Source: a virus (lineage: Duplodnaviria > Heunggongvirae > Uroviricota > Caudoviricetes). Taken from it: a DNA stretch of 12,783 nucleotides. Below, one piece after another: positions 3,077 through 10,515 of this stretch (the first letter of the stretch is position 1; the number at the start of each line of letters is the position of its first letter). The DNA lies in the IMG/VR virus record IMGVR_UViG_3300031772_000004, positions 106,710 to 119,492 of that record; one strand, given 5' to 3'. Both the position numbers and the translations under genes were made by a program. The notes below the pieces were generated by a model. The model made no database searches. It saw nothing but the letters and a program-made list of their open reading frames with translations, and was not told the origin of the DNA.

Positions 3077-3748
3077 ATGAATGTTATTTCTCCCCCCAAT
3101 CGAAAATGTGAATATGGTTGTCTAATGGCAATAATTTCACCTAAAACCAGTAAAAATATTGTTAAATTTGGTAAAACCGCTATTCCTGACAAAAATTTGT
3201 ATATCGGGCCGCCTGAGGATGAATTAGGCAGAGACACAGAGCCACATGTTACTTTAAAGTTTGGATTTACTCCTGACTTAACCGAACCTCAGATTCTCAG
3301 CATAATCAAGGAATTAAATAAGCGTATAATCAAAGAATCGTTAAAAGAGATGGGTGGCAAATATGTTATCCGCGCAGGCGGTGGAAGTGGGACAAGAGAA
3401 CTTGAAGATGATGAGTTTAGAAGTAGTTTGCTATCAATGGAAGAAAATAAAAATAAGAAACCCACTTGGAAAATATATGCCGAAGGTATAACTATTTTTG
3501 ATAGCAAAAAAGAATATGATGTGGTAAAGTTTGATATAAAAAAAGACCCAATTCTTACTGAGATTCATTCTATATGTAATAGATACCCCAGCGTAAATAA
3601 GTATCCATCATATAACCCCCATATGACTATTGCTTATGTAAAAAAAGGTACTTTCCCACAAAGAGTATCACAAAAGAATATTCCCTTCAGCATTGCAAAC
3701 TTAAAATATTCTAGTATGGATGGTTCAAAACGCTACTACGATTTATAA
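3077..3748 (+). CDS. 2H phosphoesterase (2'-5' RNA ligase-like / T4 57B-Acb1-like) with an internal ~48-aa insertion
   Basis: Two HxT motifs, PHVTL (H57) and PHMTI (H182); N-terminal YGCLMA and C-terminal YNPHMTIAY resemble phage 2H proteins. Confidence 0.8.
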   Translation: MNVISPPNRKCEYGCLMAIISPKTSKNIVKFGKTAIPDKNLYIGPPEDELGRDTEPHVTLKFGFTPDLTEPQILSIIKELNKRIIKESLKEMGGKYVIRAGGGSGTRELEDDEFRSSLLSMEENKNKKPTWKIYAEGITIFDSKKEYDVVKFDIKKDPILTEIHSICNRYPSVNKYPSYNPHMTIAYVKKGTFPQRVSQKNIPFSIANLKYSSMDGSKRYYDL

Positions 3749-8037: not shown

Positions 8038-8066
8038 TTGACAATTTTACAATTCTCATATATATT
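8038..8066 (+). promoter_or_regulatory. Sigma70-like promoter TTGACA-N17-TATATT driving the RNA cassette
   Basis: TTGACA 8038-8043, TATATT 8061-8066; no plus-strand ORF follows, only structured non-coding sequence. Confidence 0.7.
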
Positions 8067-8070
8067 ATAG

Positions 8071-8185
8071 ATGTTGCATGCAAAGAAAAGTGATGCACCT
8101 ACGGTCAAAGGGGTGTAGATGCTTGGCGGACAACCGCTTAAGGGTTCGGACGACTGCCACAGGGGTACAACTCCCAACTAGACCA
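8071..8185 (+). ncRNA. Unidentified ~115-nt structured RNA ending in ACCA
   Basis: GC-rich island after the promoter, with hairpins GCGG-ACAA-CCGC, GCAcCTAC/GTAGaTGC and GGG-GTACAACT-CCC (T-loop-like), ending ...GACCA before an AT-rich spacer. Boundaries are inferred. Confidence 0.45.
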
Positions 8186-8202
8186 TAATTTTTGTTCTTT
8201 AA

Positions 8203-8559
8203 AAATAAATATAGTCGATTGTTCGCGGCAACAATAGAAATGGCTTAAACCCTCTGGCGTTAAAGGAAAGCAACACGCCTTTTTACAGTTTTTTACCTAT
8301 ACGGTGGCTGCACACTACCTGTCAACAGGCACAAGTAAAAACGAAACTTAGTTGCGAGTTGGCGGCGAGGACGAACCAACCTATTGTTGCTGAGGAAATT
8401 CGCGTCTGCACAACCTAATGTGGCAGGATAATTCCGCTATGACCACAGAAGCAGCAATCTAAATTAGCTTAGTGTGTCGGTTGCACAATAATAGCTTGGT
8501 TAGAGCTCAGTCAAATGAACGATTAGAAACAAAAACGCGGTTATGAGCTATATTTATTT
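8203..8559 (+). ncRNA. rnpB: RNase P RNA, variant lacking most of the S-domain and carrying a 143-nt P3 insertion
   Basis: CR-I GAGGAAATTCGCGTCTGC (8392-8409) and CR-V ACAAAAACGCGGTTAT (8529-8544) align without gaps to E. coli GAGGAAAGUCCGGGCUCC and ACAGAACCCGGCUUAU, with compensatory changes in P4. Helices: P1 8203-8214/8548-8559 (12 perfect bp), P2 8217-8224/8517-8524, P3 8228-8237/8381-8390 (10 perfect bp), P4 8397-8405/8535-8542 with the bulged U, P5 8406-8409/8451-8454. J5/15 CAA and a CR-IV-like AGTCAAATG are present. Confidence 0.88.
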
Positions 8560-8564
8560 AATGT

Positions 8565-8648
8565 GCCCGTGTATCGTCGCCGTTTCCTAAACGGTAGAAA
8601 CGTAAATGGAAATTGAAAATGCAGGTTCGATTCCTGTCTCGGGCGCCA
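8565..8648 (+). tRNA. Atypical tRNA-Arg(CCU)-like RNA, 84 nt: no canonical D-arm, 25-nt extra region, CCA encoded
   Basis: Acceptor GCCCGTG/CTCGGGC (one T-T mismatch), G73, CCA; T-arm GCAGG-TTCGATT-CCTGT; anticodon arm GCCGT-TTCCTAA-ACGGT; only 7 nt (TATCGTC) between the acceptor and anticodon stems. Confidence 0.75.
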
Positions 8649-8664
8649 TTTTTTATCAATTGAT

Positions 8665-9528
8665 ATGATATTTATAATAGTGAAGTCATATACAATTGAT
8701 ACCATTTTAAAAGAAGTTTATTTAAATAAACCTGTAGACGAAGATCTCAACACAAAATTCTCTGATTTCACATCTTATTTGTCGGGTATGGCTAAAGGCG
8801 TCGTTGATAAACTGTTTTTCTTAAAATTCATCAAACCTGATATGCTTGTTGATTTTGGCTCAGCCGATGGATTTATCCTTAAACAAATTCACAAATATAA
8901 CCCAAACATAAATCTAATCGGATATGACATATCTCCCGATATGATTACAATAGCAAAAGAAAAGATTCCAGATATTCAATTTACAAATAATTGGTTAGAT
9001 GCAATTAAAGATGTCAAGCGTTATAAAAATTCCTGTTTATTACTATCATCTGTAATTCATGAAGTTTATTCCTATTCGACTTCTGAAGCCATCGAATATT
9101 TTTGGGAAAGTATATTTAATGCTGGTTTTGAATACATTGTCATCCGTGATACCATTCCATCAGAAAAAATTGAAAAGGTCATCAACTTCAAGAAGGATGT
9201 GGAGCAAGTCAAAAAAATTGTTGATCCAAAATTGTTAGATGATTATGAAAATAGTTGGGGACCAATTGATAAAAGTTATAAAAATTTCATTCGATTTGTA
9301 TTGATGTACAGATATAGAAATAATTGGTCGCGAGAAAGATTAGAAGATTATTTGTCATTAACATATGAATCAATGCTGCTTAAAATACTTCCAAAGTATA
9401 ATGACAGATACAAAATCATATACGATAAGAAATTTAAGTTTAAGCCAATCCAAACTTCTTTTGCAAAAGACTTTAATATACCATTACGACAAGATATTCA
9501 TTTGAAGATGATATTGCGACACAAATAA
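8665..9528 (+). CDS. Class I SAM-dependent methyltransferase (start may be GTG 8680)
   Basis: Motif I VDFGSADG, motif II GYDISPDMI, then LLLSSVIHEVYSY and IVIRD; substrate unknown. Confidence 0.8.
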   Translation: MIFIIVKSYTIDTILKEVYLNKPVDEDLNTKFSDFTSYLSGMAKGVVDKLFFLKFIKPDMLVDFGSADGFILKQIHKYNPNINLIGYDISPDMITIAKEKIPDIQFTNNWLDAIKDVKRYKNSCLLLSSVIHEVYSYSTSEAIEYFWESIFNAGFEYIVIRDTIPSEKIEKVINFKKDVEQVKKIVDPKLLDDYENSWGPIDKSYKNFIRFVLMYRYRNNWSRERLEDYLSLTYESMLLKILPKYNDRYKIIYDKKFKFKPIQTSFAKDFNIPLRQDIHLKMILRHK

Positions 9529-9623: not shown

Positions 9624-10515
9624 TACTGATTTGAGATGTTCCTGTTCTTTGATTTTCGTTTTAAGGGCGGTATAGCGTCCTGATACTTCCGCAAGGGAGT
9701 ATTTAAGATAAACTGCAGTAATGCAGCCAAAGGGGTGAGTCCCAAGACTCTCCCGCCATTCAACTGGCCACCGATACAAAAGCAAGCTCTGTAAGCTTAT
9801 TTGGAAACAAATGAGATACATCTGAAGCTGGTTAGCAAACGAATCCGGTATGTGACGAACAGAAAGGTTCTAACTGTCACCCGACAGTTCTTACTAATGC
9901 CCACGCGGCAACAGTTAAGGTTAAGAGTTCAAGCGAAGTCGTTTAGTTCGAGCCTCGCAAGCAAGAGCTTAATGATAGATTGATAGAAAGTGGGCTGGGT
10001 TACTCTATGCACACAATCTTGAAAATCGGATGAGTACTCGCAAGGGAAAGTCAGGTGGTGTGTTGCATTCTGTAGCTGTAACAGGTTATGGAACAACTAG
10101 CAACGCACATCACACTTGGGTTTGACATAGCTCGATAGAGCGCTAGTATATTAAACTAGAGGTATGGCTTAACCGCCGTTCTCAATAAAATGCAAAGTCG
10201 TTGCTTCCGATAACGGAAAAAGTCTTAATTCTCTGCCCGCAAGGGAACAGAGACACTTGATTCTCGCAAGGATGATGGTGTCAGTACGGAGATTGACGGA
10301 GGGTGTCGCAGCTCTTACTGCTCGCAAGTCAGACGTTGGTTGAAATGCTGAATATGTTATCGGTAAACTTGAATCGCCTCAAGTATAAAAAGGCAGACCT
10401 GTTAAATACCTGATACGTTCCCAGCGGACGGTCAAGGTGGATAAGTGTGAAGGTATCTCGCAAGGATACGATAATACTTCAAGGTTAACATTTTAAGCTG
10501 TAGTCTCAGGCTTGA
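9624..10515 (+). ncRNA. Giant structured ncRNA (~890 nt), GOLLD/ROOL-like; exact family unconfirmed
   Basis: No credible ORF over about 1 kb in a gene-dense genome; visibly GC-richer than the flanks; seven C-GCAA-G tetraloop motifs (9690, 9956, 10039, 10238, 10265, 10323, 10459); further hairpins; long-range pairing TGAGATACA 9812-9820 with TGTAGTCTCA 10499-10508; own promoter. Ends are approximate. Confidence 0.75.

What the first reader, a model, noticed from the sequence alone, without database searches (positions are those of the whole stretch)
8565..8648. tRNA-Arg(CCU)-like RNA with an apparently permuted D-arm, directly behind the RNase P gene
Seen: acceptor, T and anticodon arms are normal, but only TATCGTC (8572-8578) lies where the D-arm should be. 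CGT (8575-8577) can pair with ACG (8600-8602) on the far side of the anticodon arm, and this is followed by TAAATGGA (8603-8610), which looks like a D-loop with G18-G19-A20. Established: A20, C35 and A/G73 are arginine identity elements, and GG of the D-loop contacts the T-loop to make the elbow. Inference: the D-loop has moved 3' of the anticodon arm, giving a rewired tRNA topology that could still form an L-shape and read the rare AGG codon, evade anticodon nucleases or tRNA-sensing defences, or act as a decoy. An RNase P lacking the elbow-reading S-domain would suit such a substrate.
Basis: partly seen in the sequence, partly recalled or inferred. Interest (0 to 1): 0.8.

Follow-up and report, generated by a model that had tools for sequence, protein, structure and literature searches.

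The report
Rewired phage arginine tRNA (CCU)
This 84-base gene is very probably a working arginine tRNA whose D-arm is split and placed on both sides of the anticodon arm, a non-cloverleaf design shared by well over a hundred phages, mostly missed by tRNA finders, and absent from the papers I could search.

Summary
Positions 8565-8648 carry a normal acceptor stem, anticodon arm (CCU) and T-arm, G73 and an encoded CCA. Only seven bases lie where the D-arm belongs, and 25 bases lie after the anticodon arm.

The element is not a decayed tRNA. Pattern scans and a covariance model found 160 copies (136 distinct) of the same layout. They occur in IMG/VR phage contigs, prophages and cultured phages, including Felix O1-like coliphages.

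- With the anticodon left free, only arginine anticodons appeared, plus one UAU.
- All three pairs of the short stem enclosing the anticodon arm show compensatory changes.
- U8, A9, A14, G18-G19-A20 and a covarying 15:48 pair are kept. The D-arm therefore looks circularly permuted rather than lost.
- In large tRNA arrays the rewired copy supplies the missing arginine isoacceptor.
- In Felix O1-like phages it occupies the same slot as a canonical tRNA-Arg(UCU).

The proposed links to the mini RNase P RNA and to defence evasion are not supported.

Earlier notes of this scan report the same family on other genomes. I found no published description.

The parts
8565..8571 (+). Acceptor stem, 5' strand (GCCCGTG)
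   Evidence: Pairs with 8638-8644 at 6 of 7 positions, with U-U at 6:67. All seven family pairs covary.
8572..8573 (+). U8-A9 equivalent (TA)
   Evidence: Invariant in 100 of 100 distinct viral members, including the 14 found without the search pattern.
8574..8577 (+). T plus CGT: equivalent of the D-stem 3' strand (positions 22, 23-25). It lies directly before the anticodon arm.
   Evidence: CGT pairs with ACG at 8600-8602. All three family pairs show compensatory changes. The numbering is my inference.
8578..8578 (+). Single base between the enclosing stem and the anticodon stem (position 26 equivalent)
   Evidence: One variable base in every member.
8579..8595 (+). Anticodon arm: stem GCCGT/ACGGT and loop TTCCTAA, with anticodon CCT at 8586-8588 (reads AGG)
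   Evidence: Read from the sequence. The stem pairs covary strongly in the family, and U33 and A37 are invariant.
8596..8599 (+). Linker AGAA between the anticodon stem and the relocated D-stem strand
   Evidence: It is 3-5 bases long in most of the family (up to 8 in phage EC6), and its last base is A in 81 of 100 members.
8600..8602 (+). ACG: equivalent of the D-stem 5' strand (positions 10-12), relocated 3' of the anticodon arm
   Evidence: Pairs with 8575-8577. The pairing covaries in the family.
8603..8610 (+). D-loop-like stretch TAAATGGA (U13 A14 A15 N16 N17 G18 G19 A20)
   Evidence: T, A, GG and the following A are invariant in 100 distinct members. The second A is A in 97 and G in 3, and those three have C instead of U before the T-stem.
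8611..8620 (+). Second linker AATTGAAAAT, ending in A-U (position 48 equivalent at 8620)
   Evidence: The final A-T is conserved in 98% and 96% of members. This copy's linker is longer than the usual 4-5 bases, like the TGAAAAT subclass.
8621..8637 (+). T-arm: GCAGG, loop TTCGATT, CCTGT
   Evidence: Canonical T-loop. The family stem pairs covary.
8638..8648 (+). Acceptor 3' strand CTCGGGC, discriminator G73 (8645) and encoded CCA (8646-8648)
   Evidence: Read from the sequence. The family discriminator is G 60, A 46, U 27, C 3.
8649..8654 (+). T-run after CCA; a possible end of the transcript
   Evidence: The terminator-like scan reports 8625-8644 followed by a T-run. This is a consensus match only.
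8038..8066 (+). Sigma-70-like promoter (TTGACA, 17 bases, TATATT) that probably drives the RNA-only operon ending in this tRNA
   Evidence: 11 of 12 consensus matches. No long open reading frame on the + strand lies between it and the tRNA. Co-transcription is inferred.
8344..8555 (+). RNase P-like RNA directly upstream (context, not part of the tRNA)
   Evidence: Rfam RNaseP_arch, 35.1 bits, E 2.8e-08. This is below the gathering score, and most of the specificity domain is deleted in the alignment.

Best explanation
Positions 8565-8648 encode a functional arginine tRNA (anticodon CCU, codon AGG) with a non-cloverleaf topology.

Structure:
- The D-arm is circularly permuted around the anticodon arm. 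The strand equivalent to positions 22-25 follows U8-A9 directly. Then comes the anticodon arm. After it come the strand equivalent to positions 10-13 and the D-loop (A14, A15, G18, G19, A20).
- The two D-stem strands pair and so extend the anticodon hairpin.
- The relocated D-loop can still reach the T-loop (G18-G19 with positions 55-56).
- A15 can still pair with the U just before the T-stem (the 15:48 pair). An L-shaped core is therefore rebuilt with a different chain order.

Likely function here:
- The gene is probably transcribed from the promoter at 8038-8066 together with the RNase P-like RNA.
- Its 5' end is probably cut by RNase P.
- It carries its own CCA.
- It is probably charged by the host arginyl-tRNA synthetase, which reads A20, C35 and U36.

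Shown here by comparison: the layout, its conservation, the covariation, the restriction to arginine anticodons, the complementarity with canonical sets, and the slot replacement.

Inferred: expression, processing, charging, decoding, the three-dimensional fold, and an origin by tandem duplication of D-arm plus anticodon arm followed by loss of the outer copies.
For: 1. The family is large.
- Pattern scans of IMG/VR gave 18 and then 105 stretches.
- Covariance model R1 separates members (49.7-93.5 bits) from canonical tRNAs (36 bits or less).
- In total there are 160 hits, 136 distinct sequences, in 142 loci.

2. The structure is conserved.
- On the MAFFT alignment A1, 98.0% of cells pair, against 68.5% in shuffles and 38-47% when partners are slid.
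- RNAalifold predicts the enclosing 3-bp stem on its own.
- All three pairs of that stem have compensatory changes. The inner two rest on 14 members found by the model and not by the pattern, for example CAC/GTG, CTC/GAG and CCC/GGG.
- Phage EC6 also has CTC/GAG.

3. Tertiary hallmarks are kept.
- T8, A9, T13, A14, G18, G19 and A20 are invariant.
- The 15:48 equivalent reads AU 131, GC 3, AC 1, GG 1. All three G15 copies have C48.

4. The identity is arginine.
- With the anticodon unconstrained, the counts were TCT 64, CCT 21, ACG 3, CCG 1, TCG 1, TAT 1.
- A sequence-agnostic structural scan of 1.56 Mb gave 96 distinct hits, all with arginine anticodons, plus 2 artefacts.

5. The copies behave as real isoacceptors.
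- In 35 loci with 10 or more canonical tRNAs, a canonical tRNA-Arg with the same anticodon is never present. Overall this happens for 6 of 159 copies.
- Locus L099, for example, holds canonical ACG and CCG plus rewired CCT, TCG and TCT.

6. There is a natural replacement.
- In Felix O1-like phages the same slot, with identical flanks, holds a canonical annotated tRNA-Arg(TCT) in VpaE1 and REP5, and the rewired tRNA-Arg(TCT) in EC6.

7. The window copy has every family feature. It lies behind a strong promoter-like site and ends in CCA plus a T-run.
Against: - There are no expression, processing or aminoacylation data for any member.
- AGG is the rarest arginine codon in this contig (52 codons, 5.3% of Arg, 1.7 per 1000), so the need for a CCU isoacceptor here is unclear.
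- The enclosing stem is only 3 bp.
- The window copy has an unusually long second linker (10 bases against the usual 4-5) and a U-U mismatch in the acceptor stem.
- The single-sequence fold is not better than shuffles.
- The discriminator varies in the family (U in 27 and C in 3 of 136). Bacterial tRNA-Arg usually has a purine there.
- The search patterns were derived from this element. They fixed the two inner stem pairs and GGA in most members, and alignments A2 and A3 are fitted to the model.
- The three-dimensional argument rests on textbook tRNA geometry, not on a model or a probe.
Confidence: 0.72

Rival explanations
1. It is a functional arginine tRNA, but without a rebuilt L-shaped core. 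It would be a floppy, D-armless tRNA like those of animal mitochondria. The TAA..GGA stretch would then serve only as a handle for arginyl-tRNA synthetase (A20).
For: D-armless tRNAs work in mitochondria, and a synthetic D-armless tRNA-His works in E. coli translation (PMC7609411 and PMC11551756). The enclosing stem is short. A20 is invariant in the arginine family but is U in the rewired isoleucine-type relatives, so it does behave as an identity element.
Against: U8, A9, A14 and G18-G19 are invariant, and the T-loop is fully canonical. The 15:48 equivalent switches from A-U to G-C in three members, and the isoleucine-type relatives also have G15 with C48. These are the hallmarks of the canonical tertiary core. 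Mitochondrial D-armless tRNAs have lost them.
Confidence: 0.12
2. It is a tRNA-like processing signal. RNase P would cut at its 5' end to release the 3' end of the upstream RNase P-like RNA, as mascRNA does for MALAT1. The element itself would be neither charged nor used in decoding.
For: In this window it lies 5 to 9 bases behind the RNase P-like RNA, in an operon without protein genes.
Against: Nearly all other members lie in ordinary tRNA arrays or alone, without an RNase P-like RNA next to them. A mere cleavage signal would not need an anticodon loop restricted to arginine anticodons, an invariant A20 or an encoded CCA. It would not complement canonical tRNA-Arg sets, and it would not replace a canonical tRNA-Arg in the same slot.
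Confidence: 0.06
3. It is a decoy or regulator. It would bind arginyl-tRNA synthetase, a tRNA-directed defence nuclease or a tRNA sensor without taking part in translation.
For: Phages are known to counter tRNA-directed defences with their own tRNAs (background knowledge, not tested here). The unusual core could in principle block cleavage or turnover.
Against: The complementarity with canonical isoacceptors, and the replacement of a canonical tRNA-Arg in a syntenic slot, fit decoding better than titration. The anticodon loops are ordinary, so nucleases that read the anticodon loop would not be evaded.
Confidence: 0.06
4. It is a decayed tRNA pseudogene that lost its D-arm and gained an insertion.
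For: Standard finders reject it, and its single-sequence fold is unremarkable.
Against: There are 136 distinct homologues with the same layout and strong covariation in all four helices. The loop positions are invariant and CCA is often encoded. Members occur in phages of many hosts.
Confidence: 0.03

Closest known systems
Canonical bacterial and phage tRNA-Arg (Rfam RF00005). The example tested here is the annotated tRNA-Arg(TCT) of Escherichia phages VpaE1 and REP5.
   Same: 7-bp acceptor stem. 5-bp anticodon stem with a 7-base loop, U33 and A37. Arginine anticodons with C35. Canonical T-arm. U8, A14, G18-G19 and A20. Position in phage tRNA arrays. In Felix O1-like phages even the same genomic slot.
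   Different: There is no D hairpin between position 9 and the anticodon arm. One D-stem strand and the D-loop lie after the anticodon arm, so the chain order is different. The Rfam tRNA model scores four tested members at only 31-35 bits, against 50-75 bits for neighbouring canonical tRNAs. It scores the window copy below 29 bits.
D-armless mitochondrial tRNAs (mammalian mt tRNA-Ser(AGY), Ascaris mt tRNA-Ser(UCU)) and the synthetic mini HisT
   Same: Only a short connector lies where the D-arm should be. These tRNAs are still used in translation (PMC7609411, PMC11551756).
   Different: Those tRNAs have lost the D-loop and the conserved elbow contacts, and they fold into a different, flexible shape. 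Here the D-loop motif, the T-loop and the 15:48 pair are kept and merely relocated. The context is phage and bacterial translation, not an organelle.
Circularly permuted tRNA genes of the red alga Cyanidioschyzon merolae, and two-piece (permuted) tmRNA (Rfam RF04321)
   Same: Both involve circular permutation of a tRNA-type RNA. This comparison rests on my own knowledge for the alga. Permuted tmRNA genes occur in the same phage loci.
   Different: In those cases the gene is permuted at the ends. For the algal genes, processing restores a normal cloverleaf. Here the 5' and 3' ends are in the normal place, and the permutation is internal to the mature RNA (D-arm around the anticodon arm).
tRNA-Sec (Rfam RF01852), the best Rfam match to the window element
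   Same: Overall tRNA shape with a long stretch between the anticodon arm and the T-arm.
   Different: The score is 21 bits against a gathering score of 47, with the D-arm deleted in the alignment. There is no 8/5 or 9/4 acceptor/T arrangement, no 6-bp D-stem and no UCA anticodon.

Membership tests
Canonical cloverleaf tRNA (Rfam RF00005; ARAGORN model) | 7-bp acceptor stem, discriminator base and 3' CCA site | tested here: met
   8565-8571 pairs with 8638-8644 (one U-U). G73 and CCA are encoded.
Canonical cloverleaf tRNA (Rfam RF00005; ARAGORN model) | Anticodon arm (5 bp, 7-base loop, U33, purine 37) and T-arm with a GTTCRANYC loop | tested here: met
   8579-8595 and 8621-8637.
Canonical cloverleaf tRNA (Rfam RF00005; ARAGORN model) | D-arm hairpin between positions 9 and 26 | tested here: not met
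   Only TATCGTC (7 bases) lies there. The Rfam alignment deletes the D-arm.
Canonical cloverleaf tRNA (Rfam RF00005; ARAGORN model) | Score at or above the curated threshold, or detection by ARAGORN | tested here: not met
   There is no Rfam match at gathering score. The best clan match is 21 bits. ARAGORN finds nothing in six modes. Across the family ARAGORN of 159. Four other members reach 31-35 bits with RF00005.
Rewired (permuted D-arm) phage tRNA-Arg family, as defined here by model R1 | U8-A9 followed directly by a short strand that pairs with a strand lying 3' of the anticodon arm | tested here: met
   CGT at 8575-8577 pairs with ACG at 8600-8602. The family pairs covary.
Rewired (permuted D-arm) phage tRNA-Arg family, as defined here by model R1 | TAA-N1-2-GGA after the relocated strand, and A-U just before the T-stem | tested here: met
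   TAAATGGA at 8603-8610 and AT at 8619-8620.
Rewired (permuted D-arm) phage tRNA-Arg family, as defined here by model R1 | Arginine anticodon with C35 | tested here: met
   CCT at 8586-8588. In the family, 135 of 136 distinct members have an arginine anticodon.
Rewired (permuted D-arm) phage tRNA-Arg family, as defined here by model R1 | R1 score in the member range (about 50 bits or more; canonical tRNAs 36 or less) | tested here: met
   74.2 bits. Caveat: the window sequence is one of the 86 sequences the model was built from.
Rewired (permuted D-arm) phage tRNA-Arg family, as defined here by model R1 | Charged with arginine and used in decoding | not testable with these tools
   This needs tRNA sequencing, charging assays and reporters.
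D-armless mitochondrial-type tRNA | Loss of the D-loop and of the conserved D-loop to T-loop elbow nucleotides | tested here: not met
   GG-A and a canonical TTCGA T-loop are invariant in the family. ARAGORN's mitochondrial modes find nothing.
tRNA-Sec (RF01852) | Score at or above 47 bits, extended acceptor and D-stems, UCA anticodon | tested here: not met
   21 bits, 7-bp acceptor stem, no D-stem, CCU anticodon.
tRNA-like RNase P cleavage signal (mascRNA type) | No constraint on the anticodon; always attached to an upstream RNA that it releases | tested here: not met
   Anticodons are restricted to arginine and complement canonical sets. Most members are not behind another structured RNA.

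The most novel reading that the evidence does not exclude
The rewiring is adaptive rather than a frozen accident. Under this reading, the changed chain order of the core makes the phage's tRNA-Arg invisible to a host enzyme that recognises the canonical D-arm or core, while host ArgRS, EF-Tu and the ribosome still accept it. That enzyme could be a host tRNA-directed nuclease, a quality-control or modification enzyme, or a nuclease the phage itself uses against host tRNAs. The phage would then keep AGA and AGG decoding while canonical tRNA-Arg is attacked. In this window the rewired tRNA and a stripped-down RNase P RNA in one operon could form a self-sufficient maturation unit.
Probability: 0.15. 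Interest if true: 0.92.

Novelty: new variant of a known kind. Interest (0 to 1): 0.85.

Why it matters
Current reviews state that cytosolic and bacterial tRNAs all share the cloverleaf, and that arm length is the only structural variable (PMC11551756, PMC7609411). A natural, widespread tRNA with an internally permuted D-arm would show that the L-shaped adaptor can be built with a second chain topology.

If confirmed, several things follow:
- Phage genome annotation would need correcting. ARAGORN of 159 copies. Several cultured phages leave the gene unannotated, and one labels it tRNA-Ser.
- A natural allele pair, canonical against rewired in the same slot of Felix O1-like coliphages, would be available for direct experiments in E. 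coli K-12.
- The design would be a new scaffold for tRNA engineering.
- It would allow tests of what RNase P, ArgRS, EF-Tu, modification enzymes and tRNA-directed defences actually read in the tRNA core.

Tried and rejected
- BLASTN of 8040-8700 against GenBank phages gave no match.
- Relatives of the neighbouring methyltransferase gave nothing in IMG/VR.
- ARAGORN with lowered thresholds and in intron and mitochondrial modes gave nothing.
- The single-sequence MFE fold is not informative (z -0.70).
- The first pattern scan also returned L002 and L003. These are not homologues but a different odd tRNA. L011, and 14 of the 45 hits in bacterial genomes, are chance matches with no T-arm or acceptor pairing.
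- The idea that the layout exists for many amino acids was rejected for the arginine-type motif: only arginine anticodons appeared, plus one UAU. A small isoleucine-type group with a different loop does exist.
- The idea that the rewired tRNA is a chromosomal bacterial gene was rejected for the cases checked:
  - Copies in Devosia and Gellertiella lie among integrase, tape-measure and head-protease genes.
  - The copies in MAGs lie in dense tRNA arrays.
  - Four of five host genomes checked also carry a canonical-looking tRNA-Arg(UCU).
- The idea of a special link with a mini RNase P found no support.
- A phage-encoded ArgRS is absent from the 119-kb contig, which is an incomplete genome.
- Six literature searches and four papers gave no description of this architecture.
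Full report
**What is in the window.**
Positions 8565-8648 read as follows:
- a 7-bp acceptor stem with one U-U mismatch;
- TA, then T, then CGT, then C;
- a 5-bp anticodon stem with loop TTCCTAA (anticodon CCU);
- AGAA, then ACG;
- TAAATGGA;
- a 10-base linker ending in AT;
- a canonical T-arm (loop TTCGATT);
- the acceptor 3' strand, G73 and CCA;
- then a run of six T.

Only seven bases lie where a D-arm of about 17 bases belongs, and 25 bases lie where a variable loop of 4-5 belongs. ARAGORN finds nothing here in any mode. Rfam has no match at gathering score. At relaxed threshold Rfam gives only tRNA-Sec at 21 bits, with the D-arm deleted.

**The element belongs to a family.**
A scan of IMG/VR for the anticodon arm followed by a distant T-loop found one clear homologue, L004. 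In L004 the CGT/ACG pairing is replaced by CGG/CCG, and TAA..GGA is kept.

I then ran two further scans:
- A pattern built on the shared motifs returned 18 stretches.
- A second pattern left the anticodon free, fixing only U33 and purine 37. It returned 105 stretches.

Parsing gave 92 distinct sequences, 91 of which passed the parse-score cut-off, all with one layout:
- acceptor stem, TA, T-C-G-N, N;
- anticodon arm, then a linker that is 3-5 bases long in most members and mostly ends in A;
- N'-C-G, then TAA-N1-2-GGA;
- a short linker ending in A-U, then the T-arm and the acceptor 3' strand.

I built covariance model R1 from 86 of these sequences. It separates members (49.7-93.5 bits) from the canonical tRNAs in the same arrays (36 bits or less). 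It also found further members that do not fit the search patterns. In total there are 160 hits, 136 distinct sequences, in 142 loci.

**The structure is supported by covariation.**
- On the MAFFT alignment A1, 98.0% of cells pair. Shuffles give 68.5%, and sliding the partners gives 38-47%. All acceptor pairs, all anticodon-stem pairs and four of five T-stem pairs show changes on both sides.
- The outermost pair of the enclosing stem was not constrained by the patterns. It reads GC 104, AU 10, CG 8, UA 4, with 10 non-standard or wobble cases.
- The two inner pairs were fixed by the patterns. The 14 members found only by the model vary them in a compensatory way, for example CAC/GTG, CTC/GAG, CCC/GGG and CAA/TTG. 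An ATGG/GCAT group shifts the stem by one pair.
- Escherichia phage EC6 has CTC/GAG.
- RNAalifold predicts this stem without being told.
- Mutual information ranks its pairs among the helices.

**The D-arm looks permuted, not lost.**
The invariant bases are those of the canonical tRNA core: U8 and A9 after the acceptor stem, then U-A-A, G-G-A after the relocated strand, and A-U before the T-stem. I read them as U13, A14, A15, G18, G19, A20 and U48, which gives a Y11:R24 pair and a 15:48 (Levitt) pair.

The three members with G at position 15 all have C at position 48. Over 136 distinct sequences the pair reads AU 131, GC 3, AC 1, GG 1. Fisher's test gives p of about 1e-5, but this is not corrected for relatedness, and two of the three are tandem neighbours.

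In a canonical tRNA the D-stem stacks on the anticodon stem. Strand 22-25-26-27-31 is continuous there, and strand 39-43-44 is followed in space by 10-13. Joining 43 to 10 and 9 to 22 therefore gives one long hairpin, from which the D-loop emerges in the usual place. This last step is inference from textbook tRNA geometry. I could not model it.

A tandem duplication of D-arm plus anticodon arm, followed by loss of the outer copies, would produce this order. The frequent T-A just before the relocated strand, which looks like a second U8-A9, fits that origin. This too is inference.

**It behaves as a real tRNA-Arg.**
- With the anticodon free, the scan gave TCT 64, CCT 21, ACG 3, CCG 1, TCG 1 and TAT 1. 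Over all distinct members the counts are TCT 96, CCT 29, ACG 6, TCG 3, CCG 1 and TAT 1.
- A scan of 1.56 Mb of fetched loci that used only helix geometry found 96 distinct hits, all with arginine anticodons, plus two artefacts.
- A20 and C35 are the main identity elements for bacterial ArgRS (established knowledge). Both are kept.
- Seventy of 89 pattern-found copies have a tRNA within 3 kb.
- In the 35 loci with 10 or more canonical tRNAs, a canonical tRNA-Arg with the same anticodon is never present. Overall this occurs for 6 of 159 copies. Locus L099, for example, holds canonical ACG and CCG and rewired CCT, TCG and TCT.
- In Felix O1-like phages the slot between tRNA-Ile and tRNA-Ser, with identical flanks, holds an annotated canonical tRNA-Arg(TCT) in VpaE1 and REP5. 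It holds the rewired tRNA-Arg(TCT) in EC6; one search found the rewired sequence in about 40 related phages. This is a natural replacement of one by the other.

**Distribution.**
Members occur in these places:
- IMG/VR contigs from about 4 kb to 435 kb.
- Cultured phages of Agrobacterium (Atu_ph04), Pseudomonas (Bitten and others), Stenotrophomonas, Limnohabitans, Alishewanella, Erwinia, Escherichia, Salmonella and Shigella.
- About 31 bacterial assemblies.

In the two isolates I checked, the copies lie among integrase, tape-measure and head-protease genes. The copies in MAGs lie in dense tRNA arrays. Four of five host genomes also have a canonical-looking tRNA-Arg(UCU).

In the cultured-phage records I opened, the gene is unannotated in three (Atu_ph04, EC6, Bitten) and labelled tRNA-Ser in one (Slicko01). 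ARAGORN of 159. The Rfam tRNA model gives 31-35 bits for four members tested, just above its threshold of 29. Neighbouring canonical tRNAs score about 50-75 bits.

**This copy in its setting.**
The window is the end of a 119-kb IMG/VR contig, estimated 39% complete. The contig has only one canonical tRNA (Ala-GGC), no second rewired copy and no ArgRS.

The element is the last gene of a stretch without protein genes. That stretch begins at a strong promoter-like site (8038-8066, 11 of 12 matches) and contains an RNase P-like RNA (Rfam RNaseP_arch, 35 bits, 8344-8555). It ends in CCA plus a T-run.

AGG is the rarest arginine codon in the contig's long reading frames: 52 codons, 5.3% of Arg, against 44.6% for AGA. 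The benefit of a CCU isoacceptor here is therefore not obvious. The missing 60% of the genome may hold other tRNAs.

**The RNase P idea.**
The rewired tRNA keeps the elbow nucleotides, so it does not need a special RNase P. The evidence is as follows:
- Among the other loci with rewired copies I found no mini-spaced RNase P-like RNA next to the rewired copy. L015 has a weak nhmmer match about 900 bases from its copy (E 0.036). L080 has a full type A RNase P RNA, and L055 carries the RNase P core motifs at a longer spacing.
- Thirty-one IMG/VR loci carry the two RNase P core motifs at the short spacing seen here. I did not verify them further. Thirty of them have no rewired tRNA-Arg, and those I checked hold ordinary tRNA arrays with canonical tRNA-Arg.
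- The exception, L222, has a rewired-layout tRNA with anticodon GAU (isoleucine). It has GGU in place of GGA, and G15 with C48. Four further distinct relatives exist.

Two conclusions follow. The layout is not strictly limited to arginine. And the loss of A20 in the isoleucine type fits A20 being an arginine identity element.

**Prior knowledge.**
Six full-text searches and four papers gave no description of this architecture. [quoted passage not shown] A 2020 review of non-canonical tRNAs lists nothing like it (PMC7609411). Subscription journals are largely outside the library.

Earlier notes of this scan report the same rewired tRNA-Arg family on several other genomes. I read them only after reaching my own reading. 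One of them led me to test the Felix O1 allele pair.

**Limits.**
- There are no data on expression, processing or charging.
- The search patterns came from this element and fixed part of the motif.
- Alignments A2 and A3 are fitted to the model.
- The counts are not corrected for phylogeny.
- The three-dimensional reading is inferred.

Noticed in passing
L222:5266-5344; also L223, L225, L235, L239: The same rewired layout occurs with anticodon GAU (isoleucine). It has TA-CCGA before the anticodon arm and TCG-TAG..GGT after it, and G15 with C before the T-stem. There are five distinct sequences with covarying acceptor and anticodon stems. In L222 it fills the missing Ile in an array of 12 canonical tRNAs, and it lies about 190 bases behind a mini RNase P-like motif pair.
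   Followed up: partly
L002:2163-2268 and the same sequence in L003: A tRNA with a normal D-arm and anticodon loop TTCCTAA (CCU). Its long variable arm is itself an anticodon-like hairpin with loop CTTCTAA (UCU). ARAGORN does not call it.
   Followed up: no
window 10053-10512: GOLLD RNA (Rfam RF02032, 183 bits, full length). A GOLLD RNA also lies in L055, another phage locus with a rewired tRNA-Arg. Other such loci hold tmRNA, permuted tmRNA or a full type A RNase P RNA.
   Followed up: partly
window 8344-8555: RNase P-like RNA. It matches Rfam RNaseP_arch at 35 bits (E 2.8e-08), with the conserved core aligned and most of the specificity domain missing. Thirty-one IMG/VR loci have the two core motifs at the same short spacing.
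   Followed up: partly
window 8071-8185: About 115 bases lie between the promoter-like site and the RNase P-like RNA, ending in ACCA. They match no Rfam family above noise and do not match model R1.
   Followed up: no
L103:1726-1802: One member of the arginine-type family has anticodon TAT (C35 changed to A) while keeping GGA and all helices. It lies in an array of 13 canonical tRNAs. It could be a pseudogene, an AUA reader or a mischarging tRNA.
   Followed up: no
L005:3917-3996, L005:5499-5578, L007:1156-1237: A subclass has two extra bases after TA that can pair with the two bases after GGA (GC with GC, AC with GT). In these copies the D-loop-like stretch becomes a bulge in a 5-bp helix.
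   Followed up: no
L188 (Escherichia phage EC6), L190 (VpaE1), L191 (REP5): Canonical and rewired tRNA-Arg(TCT) alternate in one slot of closely related Felix O1-like phages. In several relatives an HNH endonuclease gene is annotated at or beside this slot, which may drive the cassette exchange.
   Followed up: partly
L163:1485-1563 (Alishewanella phage Slicko01): A rewired tRNA-Arg(TCT) (67.7 bits with R1) is annotated in GenBank as tRNA-Ser.
   Followed up: yes
window 3077-3748: A 223-aa protein matches 2'-5' RNA ligase / LigT-type 2H phosphoesterase families (E 4e-07) and, weakly, Acb1 (E 0.0012).
   Followed up: no
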